Positions 10,190-63,323 are shown, numbered from the stretch's first letter. The stretch is 64,000 bases of DNA from Elusimicrobiota bacterium (GCA_042562855.1 JBHPNE010000003.1:6366-70365), one strand, 5' to 3'. Notes: generated by a model from the letters alone, not told the origin. Numbers and translations: made by a program.

Positions 10190-10214
10190 AAACAGGTATA
10201 TTCTATACCTGTTT
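10190..10214. promoter_or_regulatory. 25-bp palindrome AAACAGGTATA-TTC-TATACCTGTTT (candidate regulator site, alternatively a weak terminator)
   Basis: Perfect 11-bp arms read directly. It lies 9 bp upstream of a TTGACA box. The core CAGGTATA/TATACCTG recurs at 21212-21231, with half-sites at 17164-17256. Confidence 0.55.
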
Positions 10215-10222
10215 CTTAATTC

Positions 10223-10251
10223 TTGACAATACTTTAGAATATTGTTATATA
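10223..10251 (+). promoter_or_regulatory. sigma70-like promoter TTGACA-N17-TATATA for the ArsR-type gene
   Basis: -35 at 10223-10228 and -10 at 10246-10251. The sequence CTTAATTcTTGACAAT is shared 16/17 with 21247-21262. Confidence 0.55.
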
Positions 10252-10267
10252 CATATCATGCAGAGGT

Positions 10268-10291
10268 GTGCATATGCGCAGATATGCATAT
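10268..10291. promoter_or_regulatory. operator-like duplicated self-palindromic TGCATATG boxes
   Basis: gTGCATATGcgcagaTATGCATATGt sits just downstream of the predicted -10, inside the leader of the ArsR-type gene. Confidence 0.35.
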
Positions 10292-10348
10292 GTCAAGAGT
10301 TTTAAAACAAGAAAGCATTGATTCGGCATTCTGTTCGGAGATAAGGTT

Positions 10349-10633
10349 ATGGAAGATCAGGTAAAGGTAATAAAAACATTGTCTGAAAAAAACAGGTTCG
10401 CGGTATTTTCATTCCTTTTAGAACGCAAAAAGGAATACTGTGTGCTTGATATTGCTAAGGAAACAAACCTTAAACAGTACAATGTTTCCAGGTATTTAAA
10501 AGAGTTAAAAAATGCTGACCTGGTTACCGAAAAACGGAAAGGGCAGTTTGTTTATTATAAGGTAAACAAAGCCAAAAGCGCTTATGCTCAGAATTTAATG
10601 AATTGTCTAAAAGATATGAAAAAGACAGGTTAA
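10349..10633 (+). CDS. ArsR/SmtB-family winged-helix transcriptional regulator
   Basis: 94 aa. The pattern RFAVFSFLL...EYCVLDIAKETNLKQYNVSRYLKELKNADLVTEKRKGQFVYYKV matches the ArsR HTH plus wing. Only one Cys, so no obvious metal site. Confidence 0.8.
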   Translation: MEDQVKVIKTLSEKNRFAVFSFLLERKKEYCVLDIAKETNLKQYNVSRYLKELKNADLVTEKRKGQFVYYKVNKAKSAYAQNLMNCLKDMKKTG

Positions 10634-10702
10634 CGAAAGAAAAGGCAAAAGAGACCAAAAATATAGATTTTTGAATAGGTTTTTAAAATTGAATAATAGG
10701 CC

Positions 10703-10731
10703 TTGGCAAATCGGGGGGTGTAGACTATAAT
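10703..10731 (+). promoter_or_regulatory. sigma70-like promoter TTGGCA-N17-TATAAT for the first fibre operon
   Basis: -35 at 10703-10708 and a perfect -10 TATAAT at 10726-10731. A second weaker candidate, TTGACT-N17-TACAAA, lies at 10751-10779. Confidence 0.45.
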
Positions 10732-10884
10732 ACGCGTTGTAGCAAGAAAATTGACTCAAAAATGTTAAACTTTTACAAAAAATTTTGAAGTCTTATGCAG
10801 TTTTTTCAACTGCGGGTTGTATAAAGAACCCACAGTGTGATTTTTTTGAGTTATACATACGGAAAGATCAAGGAGACTACAAAT

Positions 10885-11088
10885 ATGCTAAAAGAGTTTC
10901 GTTTGCCAGAGGATTATGAATACCAGAAGGACTTGATTGAGCAGGCCACTCTCGATAATCCCCTGTACATATCAAGGAAATCCTTGCCAATAGTTTTGAC
11001 ATTGTCGTACGAAGTCAAGATCGTTCCCATGGAAGGGGGCGATCTTTTTTTAATATATATGGATTGTTACAATTCACTGGAAAGTTAA
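10885..11088 (+). CDS. small hypothetical protein (67 aa), first gene of the fibre operon
   Basis: ATG is 9 nt after AAGGAG (10870-10875). The ORF-track start at 10837 (GTG) lacks an RBS. No signal peptide and no recognisable family. Confidence 0.5.
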   Translation: MLKEFRLPEDYEYQKDLIEQATLDNPLYISRKSLPIVLTLSYEVKIVPMEGGDLFLIYMDCYNSLES

Positions 11089-11121
11089 AGAAGCAAAAAT
11101 AAAAAAAAGGAGGACAAGGCA

Positions 11122-12360
11122 ATGGGCACAAAAGTTTTTTCAAAGTTGCTTGTAGTTGTCATGCTCATTTCCGTTCCGCTGACTTTGGCCTATGCGGGAC
11201 TGAAAACTGACAACTTCGAAGCAACGTACGGCGTAGTGGCAGGTACCGGTACTTTTAGTAGCGGCATATCTGCTAGCACAATTTCGGTAACGTCCCAGAC
11301 AGGTTTCAGACTGGGTGTTTCGACGACAGCAGGATATGTTCTAACCACAGATGCAAACGGTGTGGGTACATGGCAGCCATCGGTAGCAGGAGTTTCAGAT
11401 CATGATGCTCTCACATCAACTGGGACATTAACACATCTTGAGCTTGAAGCCCAAATTACTGCTCTCGATGCATCCACAATCACGTTGAGGACCGATGTAA
11501 ATACCCTCGATGCGTCCACGCAAACGCTGAGTACGGCTGTAAGTAACAGGTTGCTAAATACCAGCGATACGTTGACGGGAACATTAACCGTAACGGCCGG
11601 TGTTGCAGCATCTACCGGTGTATTTAGCGGAACTTTAGACGCAGACACGCTTAATACCGGAAATGGCGATTATGAGCTTTTTGCTATGAATCAGGATGTA
11701 GAGACGACTGATGATGTGACGTTCAGCTCACTATCGGTTACCAACCTCGGTGGTTTCAGAATAGGAGTATCCACGACAGCTGGATATGTTCTAACCACAG
11801 ATGCAAACGGTGTGGGTACATGGCAGCCATCGGTAGCAGGAGTTTCAGATCATGATGCTCTCACATCAACTGGGACATTAACACATCTTGAGCTTGAAGC
11901 CCAAATTACTGCTCTCGATGCGTCCACAATCACGTTGAGGACCGATGTAAATACCCTCGATGCGTCCACGCAAACGCTGAGTACGGCTGTAAGTAACAGG
12001 TTGCTAAATACTAGCGATACGTTGACGGGAACATTAACCGTAACGGCTGGTGTTGCAGCATCTACCGGTGTATTTAGCGGAACTTTAGACGCAGACACGC
12101 TTAATACCGGAAACGGCGATTACGAACTTTTCGCCATGGATCAGGATGTTCAGACGACTGATGATGTAACATTCAGCTCAGCCACAATTACCAATACTCT
12201 TACAGCAAGCGGCGATCTAGCACTTTCTGCTACATCCACTGTTTTATACGGACCGGATGATACAGACGGCAGCTGGAAAACCGTAAGGGTCGGCAACGAT
12301 CTCGTAACATATCGTTACGATACCGATACTTGGGTAGAAAAATACAGGGTTATTCCGTAA
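11122..12360 (+). CDS. secreted fibre-like protein with an internal 150-aa tandem duplication
   Basis: 412 aa with AGGAGG RBS and signal peptide ...LTLAYA. Thr/Ala/Gly/Asp-rich, with two copies of FR.GVSTTAGYVLTTDANGVGTWQPSVAGVSDHDALT... Confidence 0.85.
   Translation: MGTKVFSKLLVVVMLISVPLTLAYAGLKTDNFEATYGVVAGTGTFSSGISASTISVTSQTGFRLGVSTTAGYVLTTDANGVGTWQPSVAGVSDHDALTSTGTLTHLELEAQITALDASTITLRTDVNTLDASTQTLSTAVSNRLLNTSDTLTGTLTVTAGVAASTGVFSGTLDADTLNTGNGDYELFAMNQDVETTDDVTFSSLSVTNLGGFRIGVSTTAGYVLTTDANGVGTWQPSVAGVSDHDALTSTGTLTHLELEAQITALDASTITLRTDVNTLDASTQTLSTAVSNRLLNTSDTLTGTLTVTAGVAASTGVFSGTLDADTLNTGNGDYELFAMDQDVQTTDDVTFSSATITNTLTASGDLALSATSTVLYGPDDTDGSWKTVRVGNDLVTYRYDTDTWVEKYRVIP
11302..12201 (+). 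repeat. 2 x 450-bp in-frame tandem duplication
   Basis: 11302-11751 versus 11752-12201. The core 11332-11663 versus 11782-12113 differs at only 3 positions (11472, 11562, 11598), all third-codon and synonymous. The edges are clearly more diverged. Confidence 0.97.
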
Positions 12361-12421
12361 ACGTAATTTCGCCGGGATTATTTCATTGTTTATCGTGAAA
12401 AATCCCGCAGAGGTGAAAGAA

Positions 12422-13024
12422 ATGTCTAGGATAAAAGGAAACTTAATAAACGAAAGATTCTTAAAAGTTCTTGCCAGTGGTGCAGGTTTTGCATTCGGCA
12501 GGAAACGTTTATTGTCTTATTCCATTTTATTCTTATTTACAGGAGTTTCTTTTGCTCTGATAATCGGCGGAGGATACATAGTTGAATTCGCAAGACTTGT
12601 TGGCAGCGGCGGCCAAAGGTTGGCCAGCTCCAATTACGTTTTAAACGGAGCGGGTATAGAGAGTATAGGAGGTTTATCAATGGCGGGCGGAGTGTACTCA
12701 ATAGATACCAGCCAATCAACAGGCGTTGCCAAACTAGAGGCGGATTTAACAATTGCCCATTGCTATCCGAATCCATACAAGCCTAACTCAGGGTTAGGCC
12801 ATAACAAAATAACGTTTTCGCATACCACAGCGTATACGAAACTTATGGTGTTTAATATAGCAGGAGAACTGGTTTACAGTACAGAAGCCGATACGCCTAC
12901 AGGCGAACTTGAATGGAATGTGCGAAATAATGCAGGCGAAAAAGTTGCCTCAGGCGTATATCTGTATCTGTTAACCGATAATGAAGGACACAAGAAAGTA
13001 GGCAAGTTTGCGATTTTGAGGTAA
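12422..13024 (+). CDS. membrane-anchored mini-protein ending in a T9SS-type / FlgD-Ig-like C-terminal domain
   Basis: ATG follows GAGGTGA (the ORF-track TTG at 12386 is less likely). Has a basic N-region plus one hydrophobic helix. C-terminus: YPNPYKP...ITF...LMVFNIAGELVYS...WNVRNNAGEKVASGVYLYLLTDNEGHKKVGKFAILR. Confidence 0.75.
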   Translation: MSRIKGNLINERFLKVLASGAGFAFGRKRLLSYSILFLFTGVSFALIIGGGYIVEFARLVGSGGQRLASSNYVLNGAGIESIGGLSMAGGVYSIDTSQSTGVAKLEADLTIAHCYPNPYKPNSGLGHNKITFSHTTAYTKLMVFNIAGELVYSTEADTPTGELEWNVRNNAGEKVASGVYLYLLTDNEGHKKVGKFAILR

Positions 13025-13042
13025 ATCCTAAACGGAGGAGAA

Positions 13043-14173
13043 GTGCAAAGGCTTGGTTGGTTATCATTACTCTTAATATCAGTCTTTTTTGCAAGCGTCC
13101 TTTATGCGGCGGCTCCTACAAGCTTCCGTTATCAGGGCACCTTGAAAGAGAATGAAAAAGTGGTAGATGGTACAAAAACCATGCGTTTCCGTTTTACCAA
13201 TTCTGACGGTTCAACACAGTATTGGACCAGCGGGAATGTTGCCGTTACAGTTACGGGCGGTGTTTTCAGTACTGAACTTACTCCGTCGGTAGACTGGAAC
13301 AATATCCCCGGAGGAGGCTATTATCTGGAAATATCCGTTGAGGGAGAGGTTCTTCTTCCGAGAGAAAAAGTTTTATCAAACATTTATTCGCTTCATGCAA
13401 GAAATATAGATGACGGTATTGTAACACAGGCAAAATTAGACACTGGTGTAGCTGCTCAGTTGAATCTTGGTACTCATATTGCGACCACCACTCTTAATAT
13501 GTCTAACCAGCAAATATCAAATGTCGGAGCCTTCCATTATCCTGTTGGGCATACTGCCGGAGATGTTTTGACCGTAGATGCCGCAGGTAATGCTTCCTGG
13601 GGTAACCCGGGAGTTGTAGCTGGTACAGGTGATAGTTTGGGAAGTCATATTGCAACAATGACTCTTAATATGGCAAATTTTGCCATAATAAATTCAAGCG
13701 GTTTCCAGATGACTACCGGTGCATCTTCAGGCTATGTTTTAACTTCAGACGGCGCAGGTTATGCAAGCTGGGCTGCTCCAACAGGCGACAGCTTGGGTAC
13801 ACATGTAGCAACTCAAACATTAAATATGTCGGGTTTTGGAATTTCCAATGCTGCAAGTTTCCAGATGACAACAGGTGCATCTGCAGGCTACATTTTAAGT
13901 TCTGATGGTTCAGGTAATGCAGCTTGGATTTCTACATCAACATTTGCCGGAGACAATTTCGGAAATCATGTAGCTACTACAACAGTAAACATGAGTAACA
14001 ATGACATAATCAATGTAAAGGATGTTAAATCCAGCACAACATCAGTTTTTTATTTAGGTGATGAAAACACCGACGGAACATGGAGATTTCAGGTGGACGG
14101 TAATGGAGATTTAATATTTGAAAAGAGAATTGGCGGATCCTATGTGACACAAACCACGATAGACGCGCCCTAA
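13043..14173 (+). CDS. secreted fibre-like protein with ~50-aa repeats
   Basis: 376 aa with a GTG start behind GGAGGAG and a signal peptide. N-domain: FRYQGTLKENEKVVDGTKTMRFRF...YLEISVEGEVLLPREKV. Then four units of G(D)sLG.H.AT.TLNMs...I.N...F.MTTGAS.GY.L.SDG.G.A.W. Confidence 0.85.
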   Translation: MQRLGWLSLLLISVFFASVLYAAAPTSFRYQGTLKENEKVVDGTKTMRFRFTNSDGSTQYWTSGNVAVTVTGGVFSTELTPSVDWNNIPGGGYYLEISVEGEVLLPREKVLSNIYSLHARNIDDGIVTQAKLDTGVAAQLNLGTHIATTTLNMSNQQISNVGAFHYPVGHTAGDVLTVDAAGNASWGNPGVVAGTGDSLGSHIATMTLNMANFAIINSSGFQMTTGASSGYVLTSDGAGYASWAAPTGDSLGTHVATQTLNMSGFGISNAASFQMTTGASAGYILSSDGSGNAAWISTSTFAGDNFGNHVATTTVNMSNNDIINVKDVKSSTTSVFYLGDENTDGTWRFQVDGNGDLIFEKRIGGSYVTQTTIDAP

Positions 14174-14218
14174 ATCTAAGGAAAATAATTTCATAAAAAT
14201 ATATACGGATAAAAATAA

Positions 14219-14989
14219 ATGAAATTTTACATTAAATCAATTCTTTACTTTTCCATATTATTTATAACTGGTTTAGCAAATGCAGGTTTTGTTTCAGACA
14301 GGGTTGGAGTAGGTATCGTAAATCCAAATGATCTGGAAGTAGCAGGCAGAATCACAGTGTCTTCTTTTACAATGACAACCGGGGCTTCCAGCGGTTATGT
14401 ACTCAGGAATAGTGTTGGTGGAAACGCATATTGGTGTGCCTGCGTGGCTATTAGTTCAACAAATACTTGGTCAGGGGGTAATACCTATTTGGGTGCTTCA
14501 ACGATGACGGCCTTGACTCTCGATACAATAAATCACAAATCGGCATTGATAACTATAGCAAACGACAGCAACGACTTTGTAACATCCGGGACAGGAAATA
14601 TTGGTATCTCTACGGGAGTTCCGCAGGCAAAACTTGATGTTAACGGAGCTGTTTTAAGCAACCAAACTATACTTTCAAATACAGACGGTGGTGCAACTTT
14701 AGATTTTACCGGGATCAACAGCTACATTTATTATTATAATGCAAACGGGGCGTCATCGCCAACCAATGTAACAGCAATTACCGGAGGGGAAGCAGGGCAA
14801 ATGGTTACATTTTTTTATTACAGAACTGCTAGTCCCACAAATAGAAATCTGACAATAGTGAACAAGGCAGGAGCTAATGGGATTGTAACCGGCACAAACG
14901 GTAATATAACATTAACTGCAAACGATGGAGGTTGCCTAATTCTATGTTTTAACGGCACATATTGGTATATTGTTAACGCTCAGCTTTAA
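14219..14989 (+). CDS. secreted fibre paralog, shared N-module plus tip type A
   Basis: 256 aa. Signal peptide ...GLANA is followed by GFVSDRVGVGIVNPNDLEVAGR...SSFTMTTGASSGYVL...STNTWSGGNTY...GNIGISTGVPQAKLDVNGA. Ends FNGTYWYIVNAQL. Confidence 0.85.
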   Translation: MKFYIKSILYFSILFITGLANAGFVSDRVGVGIVNPNDLEVAGRITVSSFTMTTGASSGYVLRNSVGGNAYWCACVAISSTNTWSGGNTYLGASTMTALTLDTINHKSALITIANDSNDFVTSGTGNIGISTGVPQAKLDVNGAVLSNQTILSNTDGGATLDFTGINSYIYYYNANGASSPTNVTAITGGEAGQMVTFFYYRTASPTNRNLTIVNKAGANGIVTGTNGNITLTANDGGCLILCFNGTYWYIVNAQL

Positions 14990-15003
14990 AATTAGGAGAT
15001 ATA

Positions 15004-15750
15004 ATGATTAAAAAAATACTGTTTATCCCATTTTTGTTCTTATTTGCTTCGCCTCTTATCGGAGGAGTTGTTTCAGATAGGGTAGGCGTTGGCAATGTTT
15101 CTAATCCGACGGATCTTGAAGTAAGCGGAAGGGTTACGGCATCCTCTTTTACAATGACTACAAACGCCGTAGATGGATATATTATTATTTCAGATGCGGA
15201 TGGAAACGGAACCTGGCAGGTACCATATGGATTTGCACTGCTTGCTTCAACAAACACTTGGACAGGGGGAAACACCTGGTTACTACCTTCAACAATGACG
15301 ACTTTAGCAGTGGATACAATCAGTCACAACTCAAAGTTGATAACAATAGCAAATGACGGAAATGACGTGGTAACCTCCGGAACCGGCAATGTCGGTATCG
15401 GCACAATAACGCCTCAGAAAAAACTTGATGTGGAAGGGGCCATAGTAAGTAAACAAAATACAGCAACACTGAATGGTACAGCAACTACAATAGATGTTGC
15501 AGATTGCAACAGCGTTAGCTTAACAGTGAATTCCAGCACAAATTTAAACGGATTCACAAATGGTGTAGCTGGCCAAACCGTTTGCATATTTAATACTTCC
15601 ACCACGAATAATGTGGTTTTGGTCAACCAAAACGCTACAGGTACAGGCATTACAACAGGCACAGGTGGAAATGTTACCGTTACTGCTGAGGGTGGAGCGG
15701 TCTTCACTTTTGATGGTACCTATTGGTATATGGTTGGTTTGCAGCAGTAA
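15004..15750 (+). CDS. secreted fibre paralog, shared N-module plus tip type A
   Basis: 248 aa with AGGAG RBS. Same module order as the 14219 gene and ends FDGTYWYMVGLQQ. Confidence 0.85.
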   Translation: MIKKILFIPFLFLFASPLIGGVVSDRVGVGNVSNPTDLEVSGRVTASSFTMTTNAVDGYIIISDADGNGTWQVPYGFALLASTNTWTGGNTWLLPSTMTTLAVDTISHNSKLITIANDGNDVVTSGTGNVGIGTITPQKKLDVEGAIVSKQNTATLNGTATTIDVADCNSVSLTVNSSTNLNGFTNGVAGQTVCIFNTSTTNNVVLVNQNATGTGITTGTGGNVTVTAEGGAVFTFDGTYWYMVGLQQ

Positions 15751-15779
15751 TTTAGAGTTTTGAAAATGGCATTAATAAA

Positions 15780-20300: not shown

Positions 20301-21150
20301 TTCTGAGCGTATTGAATATGAAAAAAAGCTGGCGTTCAGGACAATTGTTATGGAGACTCAAATTCACCTATCTCCCGATGCTGTTTTGGTAGTGGACAGA
20401 GAAGCCAAACCATACCTTCATAACAAGAAGTTTATAGAATTATTTGATACCCCTGAGGACTTCTTGTCACAGAAGGGCCAAGAGAAGGTTTGGAAAATGC
20501 TTACGGAAAAAATTAAAGATCATGAAAGTTTTTTTGAGAAAATCAAGTATTTATATTCGCAGCCTAAAGAAGTCGGGTCTGGTGAGCTTGAAATGAAAAA
20601 CGGAATGTTCGTGAAATGGAATTCTGTACCACTTTTTGATAAAAAGAAGAATTTTAATTATGGCAGGGCATGGTTTTTTAGTGATATCACAAATTCAAAA
20701 AAGGAAAATTTGGATCTTTCTTTACTTTCAAAAAATCTTGAGAATAAAACAATAGCTTTAAAAGAGCTTCTTGCCCAGGTAGAGATAGAGAAAAAAGAAT
20801 TCGGAGAAAATTTGTTAAAAAATATAGAAAGGACTGCCCGTCCTCTCATCGGAAAGATAAGAAGAATGAAGGTTCCCAAAATCAGCAAATATCTTGAAAT
20901 GCTGGAAAAGGATCTGGACAATCTTGCATCTCCTTTCGGAAAGATAGTTGAATCTCCAAGGACCAGGCTTTCTCCTCGTGAAGTGGAAATTTGTAACATG
21001 ATACGAAATGGTTATAAGAATGCAAAAATTGCTAAGATCCTGAAGGTTTCAGGCCACACCATTCAAACCCATAGAAGGGCCATCCGAAAGAAGCTTGGCA
21101 TTGGCAGAAAAAAGATTAATTTATCCACCTATCTGCAGCAGGGCCATTAG
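17302..21150 (+). CDS. cytoplasmic MEDS - multi-PAS - GAF - PAS - LuxR/GerE HTH regulator
   Basis: 1282 aa with a GTG start. N-terminus is MEDS-like (HSAIIYETEAEHKAVVSKWIVDGLKQKKKVLYILD...). About six PAS-like units each end in ...DIT.RK-type motifs. GAF region around HAAGEILEAVCVLYN...GAFGAVYQD. C-terminal LSPREVEICNMIRNGYKNAKIAKILKVSGHTIQTHRRAIRKKLGI. Confidence 0.85.
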   Translation: MNTKDNKKQSSLCFEGMEHSAIIYETEAEHKAVVSKWIVDGLKQKKKVLYILDNHSRETITGYLKESGLDLKQYLDSGQLQIIPQSELYVIDGNFDPDRIVSFYKSEIKKAKDSHFSGVNISVEMSWMKSFKPGDERLLSYRMKMSDLIQESKISLLCQFNKNTFSAEMLLAVIRNHSTLFIGSEKISNLASLSAEEYPNPDSAEAILSHTIKSLIVQKNGKARFEALEDEFLSLAEAQSIWIWETDKEGIYNYSNTKVKDFFGIDKNEIVGKISFDFLPEAFAKAVKITCEELMAGKMLQKQIENRVLDKEGHEVFFESTICVLFDSERNHKGFRGTVKDITEKKHENEQIEKNKVLFENISRMAPVGIFRTDEHGLCTYVNEKWLEIASLKPQEALGEGWTNGLYPEDKETVFKVWANAIKNNYNFKLEYRFGKPYSKITWVLGQAMAEKDSDGKITGYVGTITDITERKKYETQISESEEKIRTIIESNRDIIFSLDSGGFVKYISPQISKYGYNEEDLMEHKFDKFIHPQDVVSESNIFKQILEFDLATPPHSFRFKKKDGQFCYLEALSRKRVLDNGSVEVISTVRDVTSRIRSEKALSIINKTFLSFGPNPLENIGRMAHAAGEILEAVCVLYNRKEGDMLHTLAGWQIPRDMPLSDKGKGHICFDVIDNGGDEPFVLDNLQESSYMNTDPNVKKYGLKTYAGFAVKVGTQAVGAFGAVYQDDRKFETFELSILKIMGLAVSIEEERLADKDKIVETSRLFSSITQLAPVGIYRKDIEDKYVYTNKRWGEISGLSCEEALGDGWKKALYPQDKSYVDKEWENSVATGKPYRLEYRFLRTDGTISWVLDRLLPEKDKEGNITGYIGAITDLTGIKELKAKLDKSEENYKNILESTVDIIQVVDFDGTIKFCSPQIEQLGDTVENAVGRNVAEIVHPEDRKMLFDAFESVAKGNDGGSVVARYKKPNGEYVSLEGSGKLSRDRFNNPQMTVVLRDVSERIEYEKKLAFRTIVMETQIHLSPDAVLVVDREAKPYLHNKKFIELFDTPEDFLSQKGQEKVWKMLTEKIKDHESFFEKIKYLYSQPKEVGSGELEMKNGMFVKWNSVPLFDKKKNFNYGRAWFFSDITNSKKENLDLSLLSKNLENKTIALKELLAQVEIEKKEFGENLLKNIERTARPLIGKIRRMKVPKISKYLEMLEKDLDNLASPFGKIVESPRTRLSPREVEICNMIRNGYKNAKIAKILKVSGHTIQTHRRAIRKKLGIGRKKINLSTYLQQGH

Positions 21151-21211
21151 CCGTAAAATTCCAAATTCGTAAAAACCCTGAAAATATTTTATCCTATTAA
21201 AAGTCAGTTAA

Positions 21212-21231
21212 CAGGTATATTTATATACCTG
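21212..21231. promoter_or_regulatory. 20-bp palindrome CAGGTATAT-TT-ATATACCTG
   Basis: 9-bp arms read directly, preceded by AA as at 10190. Lies 22 bp upstream of a TTGACA box. Confidence 0.55.
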
Positions 21232-21253
21232 ATAGGTACCAGATACTTAATTA

Positions 21254-21282
21254 TTGACAATTGATTGAAATTTCATTATATT
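21254..21282 (+). promoter_or_regulatory. sigma70-like promoter TTGACA-N17-TATATT for the paralog trio
   Basis: -35 at 21254-21259 and -10 at 21277-21282. CTTAATTaTTGACAAT matches the 10216-10231 module. Confidence 0.55.
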
Positions 21283-21315
21283 TACTGCATGTAGTAATAA
21301 TTGCAAAGGTATGTA

Positions 21316-22329
21316 ATGAAATTCTATTCTAAATGGTTGATACTGTTTTTAATAGTTTTATGCAGTAAAAATCTTTCCGCCGGTTTTGTTACCGATAAGC
21401 TGGGTGTAGGTACGGCAAATCCCACGGAAGTAGAAGTAATAGGCACTGTTAAAGCCTCTTCTTTTACAATGATAACAGGGGCCTCCGACGGATACATCCT
21501 TACCACTGATGCATCGGGCAACGGCACATGGCAAACAGCTTCTTTTCCTGATCCCGCACTTCTTATTAACTCAACAAATACATGGACAGCGGCAAACACC
21601 TGGCTTTCCTCATCGACATTCAATCAAAATTCGCTTGACAAGGATTTTCGCATAAAGGGACAGACCGATGCGAATTTGTTTTTCGCAGACGCCTCTGCCA
21701 ACCGCATCGGTATAGGGACCGATTCGCCTGTAGAAAAACTCACCGTTAACGGAAGGTTGGCAATAGCTGAAGGAGATCAGTGTGTCCCTTATTCAGGATA
21801 CGGAAACCTTTGCGTGGATAACGTTAATAAGCAGCTGTCTCATATGGAAGCTTTAGGCAGTATCGAGCTGATAACCCCAAGCTATGCTATTTTTCAGGAA
21901 CAGCAGCCGTCGGGAACTTCAGGCGGCGGATTTTCGGCAGGTTCATGGGTACAAAGAACTTTAAATACTACCATTGCTTCAAGAGGAACTAGCATAACCC
22001 GTTCCGGAAGCGATATAATTCTTTCTTCGGGTACCTACCAGGTAATGATAGAAGCGCCCGCTTACAGGGTAAATTTACATCAAACCAGGTTCTATAATGT
22101 TACGGACGGAGCTACGGCATTTTCCGGCAGTTCAGAATATTCAAGATCTTCGGCTGTGGGCGATTCTACCCCAAGCTTATTGCACGGAGCTGTAGTGATA
22201 ACGGATCAGAAAACTTTCAGGATAGAGCACCGGTGCGGAACCGCAAATGCTACTGACGGTTTTGGAAATGCGTCCGGATTCGGGGAAACAGAAGTTTATA
22301 CCTATTGTTTTATACAAAGGTGCAAGTAG
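21316..22329 (+). CDS. secreted fibre paralog, shared N-module plus tip type B
   Basis: The ATG at 21316 (MKFYSKW...) is preferred over the ORF-track TTG at 21301. Signal peptide ...NLSA, then GFVTDKLGVGTANPTEVEV...SSFTMITGASDGYILTTDASGNGTW...STNTW...NRIGIGTDSPVEKLTVNG. C-terminal tip contains SGTSGGGFSAGSWVQRTLN... Confidence 0.85.
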   Translation: MKFYSKWLILFLIVLCSKNLSAGFVTDKLGVGTANPTEVEVIGTVKASSFTMITGASDGYILTTDASGNGTWQTASFPDPALLINSTNTWTAANTWLSSSTFNQNSLDKDFRIKGQTDANLFFADASANRIGIGTDSPVEKLTVNGRLAIAEGDQCVPYSGYGNLCVDNVNKQLSHMEALGSIELITPSYAIFQEQQPSGTSGGGFSAGSWVQRTLNTTIASRGTSITRSGSDIILSSGTYQVMIEAPAYRVNLHQTRFYNVTDGATAFSGSSEYSRSSAVGDSTPSLLHGAVVITDQKTFRIEHRCGTANATDGFGNASGFGETEVYTYCFIQRCK

Positions 22330-22340
22330 AAGGGTAAAAA

Positions 22341-23354
22341 ATGAAGCTTAAAAATTTTATAATTTTAAATACAATAACTTTTCTTATTTTTTTCGTGCAA
22401 TTGCTTAATGCAGGAATAGTGACTGACAGGGTTGGGATCGGTTCTATAAGCGACCCGACAGATCTTGAAGTGTTAGGAAGAGTAACTTGCTCAACTTTTA
22501 CGATGACAACCGGAGTATCTGCGGGATATGTGCTTAAATGCGATGCAGCAGGAGCGGCATACTGGGCCGCAGCCGTTGACTGCAGTATTTTAAATGCCAC
22601 AAACACATGGACTGCACCCAACTCCTGGACATCTTCATCTATATTCAATGCAAATATGCAGGATAAGGATTTCAGGATAAAGGGGCAGTTAGACGCGGAT
22701 CTTTTCTTTGCTGATGCTTCTCAAAACGAAGTCGGTATTGGCACATCGGCTCCTCACGCAGAGATTACCTTAAACGGCCGGCTTGCATTGGCAGAAACTA
22801 CCGTACCGACTGCATCATCAGGATACGGAAAACTATTTTGCAAAGCAACTGACAGCCAGCTTTATTATCAGGACGGTACAGGAGATACTGTTCTAGTCAG
22901 CGGCCAGTTTGCTTCCATTGAAGACCAAAAAACATCAGGAACTAACGGCGGAACCTTTACCTCAGGTGCCTGGCAGACAAGGACTTTGAACGCAGTTCAG
23001 GCTTCACGTGGAAGCTTTTTTTCGCTTTCGTCAAACCAGGTTACTTTGGCCGCAGGAACATACAGAATAATGGCGTCGGCGCCGGCATATTACGTAGGGG
23101 CGCATAAATTGAGGTTACGAAATATTACAGACGGTACGACGGCTGTTTATGGCACAGCAGCGCTTTCAAATACTTCTACCCAGGCTTCTTCAGGAAGAAG
23201 TGTATGCCAGGGAATAGTTACCATTGCGGCCCAAAAGACTTTTGAAGTCCAGCATTATTGCGCGAGCACAAGAGCTACTGACGGTTTAGGGCAGGCGGCC
23301 GGTTTTGGCGATACGGAAATATATGCGATTTTATGCATACAAAAGATAAGATAG
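22341..23354 (+). CDS. secreted fibre paralog, shared N-module plus tip type B
   Basis: 337 aa with the same architecture. Tip: SGTNGGTFTSGAWQTRTLN...GTYRIMASAPAYYVGAHKLRLRNITDG...KTFEVQHYC...DGLGQAAGFGDTEIY. Confidence 0.87.
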   Translation: MKLKNFIILNTITFLIFFVQLLNAGIVTDRVGIGSISDPTDLEVLGRVTCSTFTMTTGVSAGYVLKCDAAGAAYWAAAVDCSILNATNTWTAPNSWTSSSIFNANMQDKDFRIKGQLDADLFFADASQNEVGIGTSAPHAEITLNGRLALAETTVPTASSGYGKLFCKATDSQLYYQDGTGDTVLVSGQFASIEDQKTSGTNGGTFTSGAWQTRTLNAVQASRGSFFSLSSNQVTLAAGTYRIMASAPAYYVGAHKLRLRNITDGTTAVYGTAALSNTSTQASSGRSVCQGIVTIAAQKTFEVQHYCASTRATDGLGQAAGFGDTEIYAILCIQKIR

Positions 23355-23400
23355 TGCGGTTTTTTATTCTATATAGTTTTAAGTTTAAAAGGCGAAAAAA

Positions 23401-24423
23401 ATGGAATTAATGAGAAAGTTTAAAATTTTTATTACCAGCCTTTTTATATTTTTAGTTTTAATAACAAATATTCTGCATGCGGGCATTACGACCGATAGGA
23501 TCGGCATAGGGTCGGTAAGTAATCCGACAGACTTAGAAGTCAGCGGAAAAATCACGGCTTCATCATTTACCATGACAACTTCTCCCACAAACGGTTATGT
23601 TCTTCAATGCGATGCTTCTGGAATCGCTTCCTGGGCGGATGCGTCTGACTGCAACCTTTTGACCATGGCAAATACTTGGACGGCACCCAATTCCTGGCTT
23701 TCATCTTCAACGTTTAACGCGAATTCCGGTGACAACGATTTGCAGATAAAGGGGCAAACCAATGCCAATGTTTTTTTTGCCGATGCTTCTTTTGACAGGA
23801 TAGGTGTGGGAACAGGAACTACGAATGAAAAACTTACCGTCAACCATCATTTTTCCCTGGTCGAAACCACCGTTCCGACCGCATCATCAGGATACGGAAA
23901 AATATTCTGTAAATCAAGTGATGGTCAGTTTTATTTTCAGGATGACTCCGGAGACACGGTTTTGCTTTGTAAACATTTTGTATCTATTCGGGACGAAAAA
24001 GCCTCGGGTACCGCCGGCGGAACTTTTACCTCAGGCGCATGGCAGACTAGGACTTTGAATGCCGTTCAGGCGGCAAGCGGAGACTTTTATTCGCTTTCGT
24101 CAAATCAGATAACTTTAGCGACGGGTACTTACAGAATTCTTGCATCGGCTCCTGCATATTATGTGGATTCGCATAAGGCAAGGTTTCAGAATGTTACCGA
24201 CGCAACAACAGCCATTTACGGTGCTTCTGCGTTGGCTAAGGCTTCGACTCAGGCTTCATCGGGAAGAAGTATTGTAATGGGGGTAATTACGATAGCTGCG
24301 CAAAAAACTTTTGAACTCCAGCATAGGTGTGCAACCACGAGAAATACAGACGGTTACGGACAGGCGGCGAATTTCGGCGAAACTGAAGTTTACTCGGCCA
24401 TCTGCATCATGAGACTAAAGTAG
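23401..24423 (+). CDS. secreted fibre paralog, shared N-module plus tip type B
   Basis: 340 aa, the closest paralog of the 22341 gene. Contains a T8 run at 23771-23778. Its stop codon lies inside the left REP-like hairpin. Confidence 0.87.
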   Translation: MELMRKFKIFITSLFIFLVLITNILHAGITTDRIGIGSVSNPTDLEVSGKITASSFTMTTSPTNGYVLQCDASGIASWADASDCNLLTMANTWTAPNSWLSSSTFNANSGDNDLQIKGQTNANVFFADASFDRIGVGTGTTNEKLTVNHHFSLVETTVPTASSGYGKIFCKSSDGQFYFQDDSGDTVLLCKHFVSIRDEKASGTAGGTFTSGAWQTRTLNAVQAASGDFYSLSSNQITLATGTYRILASAPAYYVDSHKARFQNVTDATTAIYGASALAKASTQASSGRSIVMGVITIAAQKTFELQHRCATTRNTDGYGQAANFGETEVYSAICIMRLK

Positions 24424-24438
24424 GGACAGCGCCTACTT
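24418..24438. repeat. REP-like hairpin, left copy (7-bp stem, 7-nt loop)
   Basis: Read directly. Contains the stops of the 23401 gene (+) and of the transposase (-). Confidence 0.9.
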
Positions 24439-25110
24439 TATGGCTTCTTTTCTCGGCCTTCCCATCTTTGGGGAAGTTAATTTCTTACCAAACTTATTTT
24501 CTAAGTTTTTAATAAATGCAGTAGCTCCAAAAGGCAGACCGGACAACGTGTGTTTTCGTATTGCAGTAACGGCATTCTCTTCTTCTTGCCCATCAATGTA
24601 TTTTTTCCATTTATTTATATTCATATCTAAATAACGAAAAATATTTTCCAATTTTATTTTAGGTACTCCCAAGCCGGTGTTAGCTAAGGCGCTAGACCAT
24701 TCCCAATCCCACGGTTTCTTAACTTGTTTTGATCGGACAGGGTTTTTCTCAATGTATCTTGCGGCGGAAAGTAAATGAATTTCATCCAAAACGCAAGAAA
24801 AAAACCGTCCTTGCCACAGATGACCGCAAGAATTATTTTTCCGATTAAAATATTGAGCATATTTCATGTGTGTTGCATTGAAAGTTCTTGAAAGAGAATC
24901 TTCTTTTGAGGGGATTGCTATAAAGTGGACATGATTACTCATAAGACAGTAAGATAAAATACTTAGTCCATATTTTTTGCTGTATTCGCCAATACAGGAA
25001 AGATAATATTTCCTGTCAATGTCATCGAAAAAAACAGTTTGTTTGTTGTTGCCCCGCTGTGTGATGTGATGGGGGAGGCCGATCGCTACAATTCTGGCTG
25101 TTCGTGGCAT
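24433..25110 (-). CDS. IS200-like / RayT-like HUH tyrosine (Y1) transposase
   Basis: 225 aa. N-terminal LPHHITQRGNNKQTVFF, HUH motif SNHVHFIAIP, and catalytic-Tyr region ARYIEKNPVR. Confidence 0.85.
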   Translation of the reverse strand: MPRTARIVAIGLPHHITQRGNNKQTVFFDDIDRKYYLSCIGEYSKKYGLSILSYCLMSNHVHFIAIPSKEDSLSRTFNATHMKYAQYFNRKNNSCGHLWQGRFFSCVLDEIHLLSAARYIEKNPVRSKQVKKPWDWEWSSALANTGLGVPKIKLENIFRYLDMNINKWKKYIDGQEEENAVTAIRKHTLSGLPFGATAFIKNLENKFGKKLTSPKMGRPRKEAIK

Positions 25111-63314: not shown

Positions 63315-63323
63315 AGTAAATTA

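What the first reader, a model, noticed from the sequence alone, without database searches (positions are those of the whole stretch)
10190..24445. Regulator-equipped locus of seven secreted fibre-like proteins with a PorV-like porin and a CTD mini-protein
About 14 kb sits between housekeeping blocks (rng on the left, aspC/rplU on the right). Its composition is visibly different from the flanks, with Thr/Gly/Ala-rich, G+C-richer genes.

Organisation:
- Operon 1 (10885-17084): a 67-aa protein, four signal-peptide fibre-like proteins, a membrane-anchored protein ending in a T9SS/FlgD-Ig-type C-terminal domain, and a PorV-like barrel.
- Operon 2 (21316-24423): three more fibre paralogs.
- Between the operons lies a 1282-aa MEDS-PAS-GAF-LuxR regulator.
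- An ArsR-type regulator leads the locus.

The motif G-[YD]-[VI]-[LI]-x-x-[DS]-x-x-G-x-x-x-W occurs 10 times across the seven fibre genes.

There is no ATPase, no phage capsid, terminase or baseplate gene, and no integrase. The locus therefore reads as a cellular, inducible surface-fibre/adhesin set. Export or anchoring may use a PorV-like/CTD route outside Bacteroidota. I do not recognise this combination as a described system.
Basis: partly seen in the sequence, partly recalled or inferred. Interest (0 to 1): 0.85.

Follow-up and report, generated by a model that had tools for sequence, protein, structure and literature searches.

The report
Phage-like surface fibres with PorV anchor
A chromosomal gene cluster of an uncultivated bacterium (most likely Elusimicrobiota) encodes seven secreted proteins built from phage-tail-fibre parts. 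In related genomes such fibre genes sit next to an outer-membrane barrel and a tiny partner protein of the kind Bacteroidota use in type IX secretion, and this pair probably holds or exports the fibres at the cell surface.

Summary

The barrel passes the PorV/PorQ family model (180 bits, cut-off 90). The mini-protein's C-terminal domain passes TIGR04183, and its model matches the PorZ C-terminal domain best.

The locus is not a prophage. It lies between mreB-mrdA-rodA-rng and aspC-rplU-rpmA-obg, and relatives carry the same module beside rng.

The fibres are chimeras. Each has a leader peptide and a cell-specific N-terminal module. Three also end in a TNF/C1q-like head that occurs in at least 558 viral contigs and in Sulfitobacter phage tail fibres.

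The conserved core is a fibre of the g4 type, the CTD mini-protein and the barrel. These three lie together in every related contig that reaches far enough. Named relatives are all Elusimicrobiota.

The regulators are not conserved with the module, and inducibility is not shown.

Best reading: these are surface fibres like the Bdellovibrio MAT fibres, coupled to a PorQ/PorZ-like barrel-CTD pair that anchors or exports them. It is a new variant of known kinds. The mechanism is inferred, not shown.

The parts
10349..10633 (+). g0: ArsR/SmtB-type regulator. It is adjacent to the module, but membership is not shown.
   Evidence: NF033788 scores 65.9 bits against a cut-off of 55 and PF01022 also matches. 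No counterpart exists in related loci.
10703..10731 (+). Promoter-like site (11 of 12 consensus positions) ahead of block 1.
   Evidence: This is a consensus match only.
10885..11088 (+). g1: 67-aa ORF with a strong Shine-Dalgarno sequence. It has no homologues and its function is unknown.
   Evidence: A terminator-like hairpin lies at 11017-11046 inside its 3' part.
11122..12360 (+). g2: 412-aa fibre. It has a leader peptide, two motif copies and a 450-bp near-identical internal tandem duplication. Its small C-terminal domain is shared with g4.
   Evidence: An orthologue in L015 is 36% identical over the full length.
12422..13024 (+). g3: CTD mini-protein of 200 aa (212 aa from the TTG at 12386). 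It consists of a basic/hydrophobic leader or membrane anchor, a conserved ~60-aa Gly/Ser linker, and a T9SS-type C-terminal domain (aa ~113-212, nt 12722-13021).
   Evidence: Profile hits: TIGR04183 27.8 bits (cut-off 23), PF13585 28.9 (cut-off 27), and 55.9 bits to the C-terminal part of the PorZ model. The AF2 model of the CTD has pLDDT above 90 and its best PDB match is PorZ 5m11 (E 1.2e-6). The family has 35 proteins of about 165-225 aa aligned here (39 search hits).
13043..14173 (+). g4: 376-aa fibre. After the leader comes a ~130-aa beta-rich N-domain (nt 13109-13492), then three motif repeats and a small C-terminal domain. This is the fibre type conserved with g3 and g7.
   Evidence: The N-domain has 4115 relatives at E<=1e-3, almost always at the N-terminus. 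Their C-terminal parts carry Collar, Peptidase_S74, YadA_head, Gp10_C, Peptidase_G2, Collagen or C1q.
14219..14989 (+). g5: 256-aa fibre with the shared N-module and a second type of head (ending ...GTYWYIV).
15004..15750 (+). g6: 248-aa fibre, a paralogue of g5 (46% identity).
   Evidence: Its motif region has weak relatives in two viral contigs.
15780..17084 (+). g7: PorV/PorQ-family outer-membrane barrel (aa 26-307, nt 15855-16700), followed by a Lys-rich linker and a sub-threshold FN3-like C-terminal domain (nt 16812-17033).
   Evidence: NF033709 180.1 bits (cut-off 90). The PorQ model scores 125.8 and the PorV model 88.1, both below their equivalog cut-offs. PF19572 scores 43.2. fn3 scores 20.2 against a cut-off of 25.
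17302..21150 (+). g8: 1282-aa MEDS, multi-PAS, (weak GAF), LuxR/GerE regulator between the two fibre blocks. It is not conserved with the module.
21254..21282 (+). Promoter-like site (11 of 12 consensus positions) ahead of block 2.
   Evidence: This is a consensus match only.
21316..22329 (+). g9: fibre with a leader, the shared N-module, a shaft and a TNF/C1q-like head (nt ~21877-22326).
   Evidence: phrog_24210 E 8e-19.
22341..23354 (+). g10: fibre of the same build as g9 (head at nt ~22902-23351).
   Evidence: phrog_24210 E 9e-32.
23410..24423 (+). g11: fibre of the same build as g9 (head at nt ~23968-24420).
   Evidence: phrog_24210 E 1e-34. In the AF2 model the head has pLDDT above 95. 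Top PDB matches are the BclA C-terminal domain, F-BclA, the Bdellovibrio Bd2734 tip, TNF and C1q. The head superimposes on a viral protein at 0.9 A rmsd with 45% identity and is 46% identical to Sulfitobacter phage tail fibres.
24416..24476 (+). Two terminator-like hairpins at the end of block 2.
   Evidence: These are consensus matches only.

Best explanation
This is a long-standing chromosomal locus of an uncultivated diderm, most likely Elusimicrobiota. It makes a set of Sec-exported, probably trimeric fibre adhesins assembled from phage-tail-fibre building blocks.

**How each fibre is built**
- A cleavable leader comes first.
- A cell-specific N-terminal module follows. In g4 this is a ~130-aa beta-rich domain. 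In g5, g6 and g9-g11 it is a G-hydrophobic-x-T/S-D...SSFTMTT...GYVLxxDxxGxxxW...NTWTxxNTW module. g2 shares the same leader/mature junction and carries two motif copies, and aligns only weakly with that module.
- A short shaft and an exchangeable head complete the protein. Three head types are present, one of them a TNF/C1q-like jelly roll that is common on phage receptor-binding proteins.

**The coupled pair**
The fibres are genetically coupled to two envelope proteins. g7 is a PorV/PorQ-family outer-membrane barrel with a periplasmic C-terminal extension. g3 is little more than a PorZ-like type IX C-terminal domain on a conserved linker.

**Proposed mechanism**
- The barrel binds the uncleaved CTD of g3, as PorQ binds PorZ and PorP/SprF bind type-B CTD proteins.
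- This creates a fixed outer-membrane station that docks the conserved N-terminal modules of the fibres, or helps them out.
- The variable heads then point outward and bind different ligands such as glycans, other cells or a host.

**What is shown and what is inferred**
- Shown: gene content, family memberships, folds of the head and the CTD, the chimeric nature of the fibres, and conserved synteny.
- Inferred: trimer state, surface exposure, the g3-g7 contact, docking of fibres on that pair, and the route across the outer membrane.
For: **1. Family calls**
- The barrel scores 180 bits on NF033709 (cut-off 90), and it scores higher on the PorQ model than on the PorV model.
- The g3 CTD passes TIGR04183 and PF13585.
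- By structure the g3 CTD matches PorZ best, then PorU and the RemA CTD.

**2. Conserved linkage**
- A g3-like gene is followed directly by a PorV-like barrel, with a fibre gene beside them, in L012, L013, L017, L018 and L019. In L015 three fibre genes lie between the g3-like gene and the barrel.
- Two more cases are inferred from equal contig lengths of hits: 5489 bp and 6341 bp.
- L011 has two TNF-head fibres followed by the barrel.
- L015, from an NCBI 'Elusimicrobia bacterium' MAG, has orthologues of g3, g4, g2, g9-11 and g7 in one run.

**3. Cellular, not phage**
- The flanks are housekeeping genes.
- Relatives place the g3-g4 pair next to rng as well.
- The fibre N-module and the g3 family found no relative in the viral-contig (IMG/VR) pattern scans, whereas the head was found in at least 558.

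**4. Export**
- All seven fibres and the barrel start with a basic/hydrophobic leader ending in A-x-A/G.
- Six fibres and their orthologues share the junction [AG]-G-hydrophobic-x-[TS]-D, which is absent from the 48 other window ORFs of at least 150 aa.
- Several Cys residues in g10 and g11 are positionally conserved (a few also in g9), which would allow disulfides.

**5. Head fold**
- The head model has pLDDT above 95 and is TNF/C1q-like. Its top matches include BclA and the Bdellovibrio MAT tip Bd2734.

**6. Mosaic fibre family**
- The g4 N-domain family carries Collar, Peptidase_S74, YadA_head, Gp10_C, Peptidase_G2, Collagen and C1q tips.
- This mirrors the MAT description: a signal peptide, a conserved ~130-aa beta-rich domain and variable tips, with surface display shown and the anchor unknown (PMC10769870).

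**7. Precedents for a barrel holding a CTD**
- PorP-PorE-PG1035 and SprF-SprB are further examples (PMC9143113).
- Relatives of g7 carry CarboxypepD_reg, OmpA or TPR extensions, which are the domain types of PorE (PMC5053529).
Against: - No experiment or expression data exists, and no sequencing run could be found.
- The fibres themselves have no CTD, so they are not classical T9SS cargo.
- How g3's CTD or the fibres would cross the outer membrane without a Sov/SprA translocon is unexplained. The rest of the genome could not be searched for T9SS core genes.
- g3's N-terminus could be an uncleaved inner-membrane anchor. That would make g3 a trans-periplasmic tether rather than a surface protein.
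- The shafts and N-modules were modelled with low confidence as monomers (pLDDT 40-55), so the trimeric state rests on analogy with TNF/C1q/BclA heads.
- The barrel is below the equivalog cut-offs for both PorV and PorQ. It also resembles FadL-like/UPF0164 barrels.
- No sequence link was found between the g3 linker and the fibre motif.
- The sample of related loci is small: about 10 contigs, all metagenomic.
Confidence: 0.55

Rival explanations
1. The organism has a full or reduced type IX secretion system elsewhere in the genome. g7 and g3 are simply its PorQ/PorZ-like (or PorV-like) attachment parts. The fibres are exported or attached by that system, and the locus is an ordinary T9SS cargo island.
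For: - g7 and g3 match T9SS families.
- L017 carries a 2758-aa fn3 + CHU_C protein followed by a PorV-like barrel, which looks like a classical large CTD cargo with a partner barrel.
Against: - None of the seven fibres has a CTD.
- g3 has no passenger domain.
- The literature confines T9SS to the FCB superphylum (PMC12421860, PMC11205867).
- Full-text searches found nothing on T9SS in Elusimicrobia.
- No T9SS core gene is among the 27 window ORFs outside the locus that were scanned, and no ORF outside the locus is as large as Sov/SprA or PorU (largest 597 aa).
Confidence: 0.15
2. The barrel is a FadL/UPF0164-type transporter with its own small partner. The fibres are independent secreted proteins, and adjacency reflects shared envelope regulation rather than a physical link.
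For: - g7 and its relatives also hit UPF0164 and Toluene_X/FadL models weakly.
- g7 is below the PorV and PorQ equivalog cut-offs.
Against: - A fibre gene lies beside the g3-barrel pair in every related contig that extends far enough. These relatives are divergent (31-56% identity) and the gene orders differ.
- The partner of the barrel is a T9SS-type CTD, which in known systems is a barrel-binding anchor.
Confidence: 0.1
3. The fibres stay inside the envelope, as periplasmic or inner-membrane-anchored structural fibres. g3 would span the periplasm from an inner-membrane helix to the barrel, forming an envelope-bracing structure rather than an adhesin.
For: - The g3 leader is modelled as a long helix (aa 11-39). 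Its cleavage site is not canonical in the window copy.
- Barrel relatives carry peptidoglycan-binding OmpA extensions.
- No outer-membrane translocon has been identified.
Against: - TNF/C1q-like heads, Collar, S74 and YadA-head tips are ligand-binding, outward-facing modules in phages, spores and Bdellovibrio.
- Three head types and recent paralogue expansion fit diversification against external ligands.
Confidence: 0.1
4. The locus is a decayed prophage or tailocin remnant whose tail-fibre genes survived.
For: - The heads of g9-g11 match phrog_24210 'tail fiber' and Sulfitobacter phage tail fibres.
- A homologue of the head lies on a 129-kb phage contig that encodes a portal protein.
- A Y1 transposase gene abuts the locus.
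Against: - There is no capsid, terminase, portal, tube, sheath, baseplate or integrase.
- All fibres carry leader peptides, which virion fibres lack.
- The N-modules and g3 found no relative in the viral-contig (IMG/VR) pattern scans.
- The module occupies the same chromosomal position next to rng in relatives.
- Housekeeping genes flank it on both sides.
Confidence: 0.03

Closest known systems
Bdellovibrio bacteriovorus MAT (mosaic adhesive trimer) fibres (Caulton et al. 2024, PMC10769870)
   Same: - Both are cell-encoded, signal-peptide-bearing fibre proteins.
- Both have a conserved beta-rich N-terminal domain of about 130 aa directly after the leader.
- Both have swappable phage-type tips (S74, TNF-like, lectin-like).
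- Both occur as multi-paralogue sets.
- The TNF-like tip of Bd2734 is among the top three PDB matches of the g11 head.
- In Bdellovibrio the fibres are surface-displayed and the surface anchor is unknown.
   Different: - The proteins here are much shorter: 248-412 aa against about 600-1100 aa.
- They come from a different phylum.
- Two different N-modules are present.
- Homology of the g4 N-domain to the MAT N-domain could not be tested.
- The fibres are genetically linked to a PorV/PorQ-like barrel and a CTD mini-protein. The text passages of the MAT paper retrieved here name no surface anchor (it states that the anchor awaits identification), and 'PorV' does not occur in its held supplementary files.
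- No predatory lifestyle is known for this organism.
T9SS attachment sub-complex PorQ-PorZ of Porphyromonas gingivalis (PMC10947112, PMC8545088)
   Same: - In both, a PorV-family barrel is paired with a protein whose type IX CTD is retained and binds the barrel.
- g3's CTD is closest to PorZ's by profile (55.9 bits) and by fold (5m11, E 1.2e-6).
- g7 scores higher on the PorQ model than on the PorV model.
   Different: - g3 lacks the two beta-propeller domains of PorZ and is only a leader, a linker and a CTD.
- g7 is below the PorQ equivalog cut-off and carries a C-terminal extension.
- No Sov, PorU, PorK/L/M/N or A-LPS context is known.
- The host is outside the FCB superphylum.
PorP-PorE-PG1035 and SprF-SprB: type-B CTD proteins anchored on a cognate barrel encoded next door (PMC9143113; PorE: PMC5053529)
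   Same: - The logic of an adjacent gene pair, 'CTD protein + its own outer-membrane barrel', used for cell-surface anchorage.
- g3 passes the type-B Pfam model CHU_C (28.9 bits, cut-off 27).
- Relatives of g7 are fused to CarboxypepD_reg, OmpA_C and TPR domains, the domain types of PorE.
   Different: - The barrel is of the PorV/PorQ family, not PorP/SprF (TIGR03519 E 0.02).
- The CTD protein has no passenger.
- The presumed passengers, the fibres, are separate polypeptides.
Phage tail fibres with TNF/C1q-like distal domains (phrog_24210; Sulfitobacter phages pCB2047-A/C and NYA-2014a; Synechococcus phage S-RIP1)
   Same: - The last ~150 aa of g9-g11 are homologous: 46% identity by tblastn, and 0.9 A rmsd with 45% identity to a viral model.
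- The GYVLTSDxxGxxxW motif also occurs in a phage fibre protein (L100).
   Different: - The window proteins carry leader peptides and an N-module that found no relative in the viral-contig scans.
- There is no virion gene context.
BclA / F-BclA collagen-like spore and Ena-fibre tip proteins of Bacillus
   Same: These are the best PDB fold matches for the head: a trimeric C1q/TNF-like jelly roll at the tip of a surface filament.
   Different: - Sequence identity is only 14-18%.
- The window proteins have no collagen repeats.
- BclA sits in a Gram-positive spore context and uses a different attachment mechanism.

Membership tests
PorV/PorQ family outer-membrane proteins (NCBIfam NF033709; Pfam PF19572) | Profile score above the curated family cut-off | tested here: met
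   NF033709 scores 180.1 bits (cut-off 90) and PF19572 scores 43.2 bits (cut-off 27).
PorV/PorQ family outer-membrane proteins (NCBIfam NF033709; Pfam PF19572) | Equivalog-level identity as T9SS PorV or PorQ | tested here: not met
   The PorV model NF033710 scores 88.1 (cut-off 250) and the PorQ model NF033711 scores 125.8 (cut-off 220). g7 is a family member but not an orthologue of either.
PorV/PorQ family outer-membrane proteins (NCBIfam NF033709; Pfam PF19572) | 14-stranded FadL-like barrel fold | not tested
Type IX secretion system (as a system) | Genome encodes the Sov/SprA translocon, the PorL/M motor, the PorK/N ring and the PorU sortase | not testable with these tools
   - Only the 64-kb window is available.
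- None of the 27 window ORFs outside the locus that were scanned is a T9SS component, and no ORF outside the locus exceeds 597 aa.
- The collection scans did not recover the source genome.
T9SS C-terminal sorting domain (type A TIGR04183/PF18962; type B PF13585) | Profile score above the cut-off | tested here: met
   TIGR04183 scores 27.8 (cut-off 23) and PF13585 scores 28.9 (cut-off 27). PF18962 at 21.8 and FlgD_ig at 21.0 are below their cut-off of 27.
T9SS C-terminal sorting domain (type A TIGR04183/PF18962; type B PF13585) | Ig-like beta-sandwich fold like solved CTDs | tested here: met
   The AF2 model has pLDDT above 90 over aa ~130-200. Its matches are PorZ 5m11 (E 1.2e-6, 29% identity), PorU 6za2 and the RemA CTD 8gl6_D.
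T9SS C-terminal sorting domain (type A TIGR04183/PF18962; type B PF13585) | The domain sits at the C-terminus of a cargo with a functional passenger domain | tested here: not met
   g3 and its 35 aligned relatives are about 165-225 aa: leader, ~60-aa linker and CTD only.
T9SS C-terminal sorting domain (type A TIGR04183/PF18962; type B PF13585) | The fibres, as presumed cargo, carry a CTD | tested here: not met
   No CTD model hits any of the seven fibres at E<=0.1.
MAT (mosaic adhesive trimer) fibre superfamily | Signal peptide followed at once by a conserved ~130-aa beta-rich domain | tested here: inconclusive
   - g4 has a leader and a ~130-aa N-domain with 4115 relatives, almost always N-terminal.
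- Homology to the Bdellovibrio N-domain could not be tested, because no Bd sequence or structure of that domain is available here.
- The other six fibres use a different N-module. Profile comparison of the two finds only the generic GIGTxxPxxKLxV motif.
MAT (mosaic adhesive trimer) fibre superfamily | Variable phage-type C-terminal tips (S74 or non-S74, including TNF-like) | tested here: met
   - The g9-g11 heads are TNF-like, and the Bd2734 tip is among the top matches.
- Members of the g4 N-domain family carry Peptidase_S74, Collar, YadA_head, Gp10_C, Peptidase_G2 and C1q.
MAT (mosaic adhesive trimer) fibre superfamily | Trimeric fibre displayed on the cell surface | not testable with these tools
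   Only monomer models are possible, and the shaft pLDDT is 40-55. No culture or expression data are available.
Prophage / phage tail-fibre module | Homology of the fibre to phage tail-fibre families | tested here: met
   phrog_24210 E 1e-34, tblastn 46% identity to Sulfitobacter phage tail fibres, and at least 558 viral contigs, all for the head domain only.
Prophage / phage tail-fibre module | Neighbouring virion, packaging, lysis or integration genes | tested here: not met
   None was found in the locus or its flanks. The N-module and g3 found no relative in the viral-contig scans.
Known anti-phage defence systems (PADLOC) | Any locus protein matches a defence-system model | tested here: not met
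   Only generic winged-helix matches to the two regulators appeared. The fibres, g3 and g7 had none.

The most novel reading that the evidence does not exclude
The g3-g7 pair may be a minimal, self-contained 'CTD-in-barrel' surface station that works without a type IX translocon in a phylum outside the FCB group. It may be the long-sought cell-surface anchor, or exit port, for MAT-type chimeric fibres.

In this reading the conserved N-terminal modules of the fibres plug into the g3 linker or the barrel loops, much as phage fibres plug into a baseplate. The cell can then exchange receptor-binding heads taken from phages.

If true, this would also suggest that the PorQ-PorZ and PorP-CTD anchoring parts of T9SS evolved from, or gave rise to, a simpler stand-alone fibre-anchoring device.
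Probability: 0.25. Interest if true: 0.8.

Novelty: new variant of a known kind. Interest (0 to 1): 0.62.

Why it matters
- **A candidate anchor for MAT-type fibres.** Cell-surface fibres built from phage receptor-binding parts were described only recently, in Bdellovibrio, and what holds them on the cell is an open question. Here, in a different and uncultivated phylum, such fibres are consistently encoded with a specific barrel-CTD pair. This gives a concrete and testable candidate for that anchor or export step.
- **T9SS-type parts outside their accepted range.** PorV/PorQ-type barrels and type IX CTDs appear to work together in a stripped-down form outside the superphylum to which T9SS is thought to be confined. 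This bears on how the T9SS attachment complex evolved, and on what the many 'PorV/PorQ family' annotations in candidate phyla mean.
- **Gene flow from phages to cells.** The locus documents flow of receptor-binding heads between phages and cellular adhesins.

Tried and rejected
- **Prophage or tailocin remnant: rejected.** There are no virion genes, the flanks are housekeeping genes, the fibres carry leader peptides, and relatives hold the module at the same position.
- **Defence system: rejected.** PADLOC gives no hits for the fibres, g3 or g7.
- **g3 linker as a degenerate copy of the fibre motif: rejected.** An HMM built from the 10 motif instances finds nothing in the g3 family (best E 0.35).
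- **The two fibre N-modules as distant homologues: not supported.** hhalign aligns only a 17-column GIGTxxPxxKLxV motif.
- **Regulators as part of the conserved system: not supported.** tblastn with ArsR, the 67-aa ORF and the MEDS-PAS-LuxR protein finds nothing in the related loci fetched by then.

**Searches that led nowhere**
- The window's own protein is not on record for contig look-up.
- The genome-contig scan with g7 returned one distant Bacteroidetes hit.
- The metagenome scan with the N-module returned only five loci.
- PDB sequence searches with g2, g4 and g6 gave no match.
- No public sequencing run holds the locus.
- Rfam found only a tmRNA.
- Full-text searches on T9SS or PorV in Elusimicrobia found nothing relevant.
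- The MAT paper's supplements hold no N-domain sequence.

Full report

Yes. The region 10.3-24.4 kb carries twelve + strand ORFs. Inside the two blocks (10885-17084 and 21316-24423) the gaps are only 11-61 nt. Each block is preceded by the best promoter-like match in the region, at 10703-10731 and 21254-21282, both 11 of 12 consensus positions. The second block ends in hairpin terminator-like sites. These are consensus matches only.

The motif G-[YD]-[VI]-[LI]-x-x-[DS]-x-x-G-x-x-x-W occurs exactly ten times in a six-frame scan of the whole 64 kb. All ten copies are in the seven fibre genes. BLASTP links the seven as paralogues.

The fibre genes are Thr/Gly/Ala/Ser-rich (for example 19.7% Thr in g2). 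This explains their modestly higher G+C, 0.43-0.47 against about 0.39.

The flanks are housekeeping genes:
- Left: mreB, mrdA, rodA and rng.
- Right: an aspartate aminotransferase, L21, L27, Obg, YchF, aroB, accC, thiC, thrB, an aspartate kinase, a citramalate synthase and ilvD.

An IS200-like Y1 transposase gene (24433-25110, minus strand) abuts the right end.

**2. The two envelope proteins**

*g7 (15780-17084).*
- It is a member of the PorV/PorQ family: NF033709 scores 180 bits (cut-off 90) and PF19572 scores 43 bits (cut-off 27).
- It is not an orthologue of either protein. The PorQ model scores 126 bits (cut-off 220) and the PorV model scores 88 bits (cut-off 250).
- After the barrel come a Lys-rich linker and a sub-threshold FN3-like domain.

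*g3 (12422-13024).*
- It passes the type-A CTD model TIGR04183 (27.8 bits, cut-off 23) and the type-B Pfam model CHU_C (28.9 bits, cut-off 27).
- It aligns best to the last ~95 residues of the PorZ model (55.9 bits).
- An AlphaFold2 model built on 35 family members gives the CTD a pLDDT above 90.
- Foldseek ranks PorZ (5m11, E 1.2e-6, 29% identity) first. PorU and the RemA CTD also appear in the list.

g3 belongs to a coherent family; the 35 members aligned here are about 165-225 aa long and share one architecture. They have a basic and hydrophobic leader, a conserved ~60-aa Gly/Ser-rich linker (consensus ...MTGGDF...GDYxLxQSVGESVG...MSGGDYEL...) and the CTD, with no passenger domain.

**3. 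The fibres are chimeras of cellular and phage parts**

*The heads of g9-g11.*
- The last ~150 residues match PHROG 24210 'tail fiber protein' (E 8e-19 to 1e-34).
- They are 46% identical to the tail fibres of cultured Sulfitobacter podophages.
- They occur on a 129-kb phage contig that encodes a portal protein and in at least 558 IMG/VR contigs. In every case only the head region matches, residues ~190-336.
- The AlphaFold2 model of g11 gives this head a pLDDT above 95.
- The fold is a TNF/C1q-like jelly roll. The best PDB matches are the Bacillus BclA and F-BclA tips, the Bdellovibrio MAT tip Bd2734, TNF-family ligands and C1q heads.
- Against predicted viral structures it superimposes at 0.9 A rmsd with 45% identity.

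*The N-terminal part.*
- The N-terminal ~150 residues shared by g5, g6 and g9-g11 found no relative in the IMG/VR pattern scan. Neither did the g3 family.
- This part comprises the leader, G-hydrophobic-x-T/S-D-R-x-G-I-G, SSFTMTT, the motif and NTWTxxNTW.
- The 14-aa motif on its own is a phage-fibre element. A viral contig encodes ...SFQMTTTPQDGYVLTSDADGNGTWQ... followed by collagen-like repeats, with no leader peptide.

*The leaders.*
- All seven fibres and the barrel begin with a basic/hydrophobic leader ending in A-x-A/G.
- Six of the seven fibres, and their orthologues elsewhere, share the junction [AG]-G-hydrophobic-x-[TS]-D. None of the 48 other window ORFs of at least 150 aa has it.
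- No dedicated signal-peptide predictor was available, so the leaders are read from the sequence.

*Head types.* Three are present:
- TNF-like, in g9-g11.
- A '...GTYWYIV' domain, in g5 and g6.
- A small '...TDGSW(K/R)...' domain, in g2 and g4.

*The g4 N-domain.*
- g4 has its own ~130-aa beta-rich N-domain directly after the leader.
- A library-wide HMMER search finds 4115 cluster representatives at E<=1e-3. The domain is almost always at the N-terminus, in proteins of 100-2800 aa.
- Among 80 of these, the C-terminal parts carry Phage Tail Collar (8), Peptidase_S74 (7), YadA_head (6), Gp10_C (4), Peptidase_G2 (2), Gp34_trimer, Collagen and C1q.
- This is therefore a large family of mosaic, phage-fibre-like secreted proteins.

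**4. Conservation and taxon**

The related contigs show the following gene orders.

| Locus | Gene order |
|---|---|
| L012 (NCBI GCA_041694835.1) | YadA-head + Peptidase_G2 fibre, g3-like (56% identity), PorV-like barrel (42-44%) carrying a CarboxypepD_reg extension |
| L013 | g4-like fibre (796 aa), g3-like, barrel with CarboxypepD_reg + OmpA |
| L017 | g4-like fibre, g3-like, barrel |
| L018 | g4-like fibre (869 aa), 90-aa ORF, g3-like, barrel with OmpA |
| L019 | fibre fragment, g3-like, barrel |
| L015 (NCBI GCA_026388075.1, 'Elusimicrobia bacterium') | g3-like, g4-like (42%), g2-like (36%), g9-11-like (43%), barrel (49%), a second g3-like, a second g4-like |
| L011 | two TNF-head fibres, barrel (53-56%) |

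- Two more co-occurrences are inferred from equal contig lengths of hits, at 5489 bp and 6341 bp.
- Relatives also place the module next to rng. L007 reads rng, g3-like, g4-like. A 13-kb ENA contig reads rodA ... rng, an S8 peptidase on the opposite strand, g3-like, and a 645-aa protein.
- The conserved core is thus a g4-type fibre, g3 and g7. The other fibres are lineage-specific additions.
- ArsR, the 67-aa ORF and the 1282-aa regulator have no counterpart in any related locus fetched by that point. 'Regulator-equipped' and 'inducible' therefore remain unsupported.
- In the regulator, MEDS, PAS and GerE are confirmed, and GAF is sub-threshold.
- Every named close relative of g3 and of the g4 N-domain is from Elusimicrobia, Elusimicrobiota or Elusimicrobiales MAGs. 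Named relatives of the barrel also include Desantisbacteria, Zixibacteria, Eisenbacteria and Marinimicrobia.
- The source organism is most likely an Elusimicrobiota bacterium. This is an inference from homologue names and synteny, since no rRNA gene lies in the window.

**5. How it most likely works**

*Shown.*
- The fibres are a Sec-type-leader-bearing, paralogous, head-swapping family made of phage-fibre parts.
- They are encoded together with a PorV/PorQ-family barrel and a PorZ-like CTD mini-protein.
- This linkage holds across divergent relatives.

*Established knowledge.*
- TNF/C1q/BclA-type heads are obligate trimers at the distal tips of fibres.
- In T9SS the CTDs of PorZ and PorU are not cleaved, and PorZ sits on the PorQ barrel (PMC10947112).
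- Type-B CTD proteins are held on cognate PorP/SprF barrels encoded next door. PorE ties that complex to the periplasmic side (PMC9143113).
- PorE is built from TPR, beta-propeller, carboxypeptidase-regulatory-like and OmpA_C domains (PMC5053529). Relatives of g7 carry three of these domain types (CarboxypepD_reg, OmpA and TPR) fused to the barrel.

*Inferred.*
- g7 binds the CTD of g3 and forms an outer-membrane station.
- The conserved N-terminal modules of the fibres dock on this station or leave the cell through it.
- The variable heads face outward and bind different ligands.

*The closest functional precedent* is the Bdellovibrio MAT family. Its members have a signal peptide, a conserved ~130-aa beta-rich N-domain and variable tips that include TNF-like and S74 domains. 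Surface display has been shown for them, and the surface element that holds them is explicitly unknown (PMC10769870).

*Weak points.*
- The fibres lack CTDs.
- No translocon is identified.
- g3's leader might be an uncleaved membrane anchor.
- The shafts modelled poorly as monomers.
- No expression data exist.

**6. Comparison, membership and novelty**

- g7 is a member of the PorV/PorQ family but not a PorV or PorQ equivalog.
- g3 carries a genuine type IX-type CTD but fails the 'cargo with passenger' criterion.
- The fibres meet the tip criterion of the MAT family. Homology of their N-domain to the MAT N-domain could not be tested.
- The prophage reading fails on gene context.
- Full-text searches found nothing on T9SS or PorV in Elusimicrobia. 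NCBI's pipeline nevertheless already labels such MAG proteins 'PorV/PorQ family' and 'T9SS type A sorting domain-containing'.

I therefore rate this as a new variant of known kinds: MAT-like chimeric fibres combined with a T9SS-type barrel-CTD anchor. It is not categorically new.

**7. Verdict**

The locus is cellular, the module is conserved, and the PorV/CTD calls hold outside Bacteroidota. The fibres, however, are phage-derived chimeras, the regulators are not part of the conserved system, and good precedents exist for both halves.
- Interest is 0.62.
- Confidence in the descriptive statement is about 0.85.
- Confidence in the anchoring or export mechanism as a whole is about 0.55, and in the stand-alone, T9SS-independent version about 0.25.

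Noticed in passing
window 11275-12024 (inside g2): A 450-bp tandem duplication. The copies at 11275-11574 and 11725-12024 are 93% identical, and 249 nt are identical. Each copy encodes one 150-aa unit of the fibre (motif plus a coiled-coil-like segment). This suggests recent length change of the fibre by unit duplication.
   Followed up: partly
window 24433-25110 (-): An IS200-like Y1 transposase gene lies directly at the 3' end of the fibre locus. PF01797 scores 54 bits. The REP-associated tyrosine transposase model scores 65.6 bits, below its cut-off of 80. The gene overlaps the terminator-like hairpins at 24416-24476.
   Followed up: partly
window ~10266-10296: An operator-like repeat of the ATGCATATG core (in GTGTGCATATGCGCAGATATGCATATGTC) lies about 55 nt upstream of the ArsR-type gene. 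It is a likely autoregulatory operator.
   Followed up: no
window 11017-11046: A strong terminator-like hairpin (12-bp stem followed by a T-run) lies inside the 3' part of the 67-aa ORF g1, between the block-1 promoter-like site and g2. It could act as an attenuator, or it could mean that g1 is a leader region rather than a gene.
   Followed up: no
window fibre genes g2, g5, g6, g9-g11; L005, L015, L016: These proteins share a leader/mature junction [AG]-G-hydrophobic-x-[TS]-D at residues 20-36, in six of the seven window fibres and in their orthologues. It is absent from the 48 other window ORFs of at least 150 aa. It could be a sorting or docking signal.
   Followed up: partly
L017 1-1410: The same contig holds a second 'CTD protein then barrel' pair: a 2758-aa fn3 + CHU_C protein followed by a 310-aa UPF0164/PorV-like barrel. 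Toxin-antitoxin genes (PhdYeFM/PIN, BrnT) lie nearby.
   Followed up: no
relatives of g7 (P0125, P0126, P0129, P0133, P0149, P0152, P0237; L012, L013, L018): PorV-like barrels outside Bacteroidota are often fused to CarboxypepD_reg, OmpA, TPR or HEAT domains. Three of these are the domain types of the separate T9SS protein PorE.
   Followed up: partly
P0003, P0005, P0019, P0052 (homologues of the g11 head): Some proteins are tandem arrays of two or three TNF-like head domains in one chain. This is unusual for a domain that normally forms a terminal trimer.
   Followed up: no
L012 2-877: In one relative, the fibre next to the g3/g7 pair has YadA-head repeats and a Peptidase_G2 autoproteolytic chaperone domain (the phi29 appendage type). 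The same barrel-CTD pair therefore accompanies quite different fibre types.
   Followed up: partly
window 63321-63703 (-): A tmRNA gene (Rfam RF00023, 157 bits).
   Followed up: no
window 9445-10095 (+): A 216-aa ORF lies between rng and the ArsR gene. It has only a weak, sub-threshold DUF533 match and no NCBIfam match (at E<=1e-12). Relatives have an S8 peptidase gene at this junction instead.
   Followed up: no
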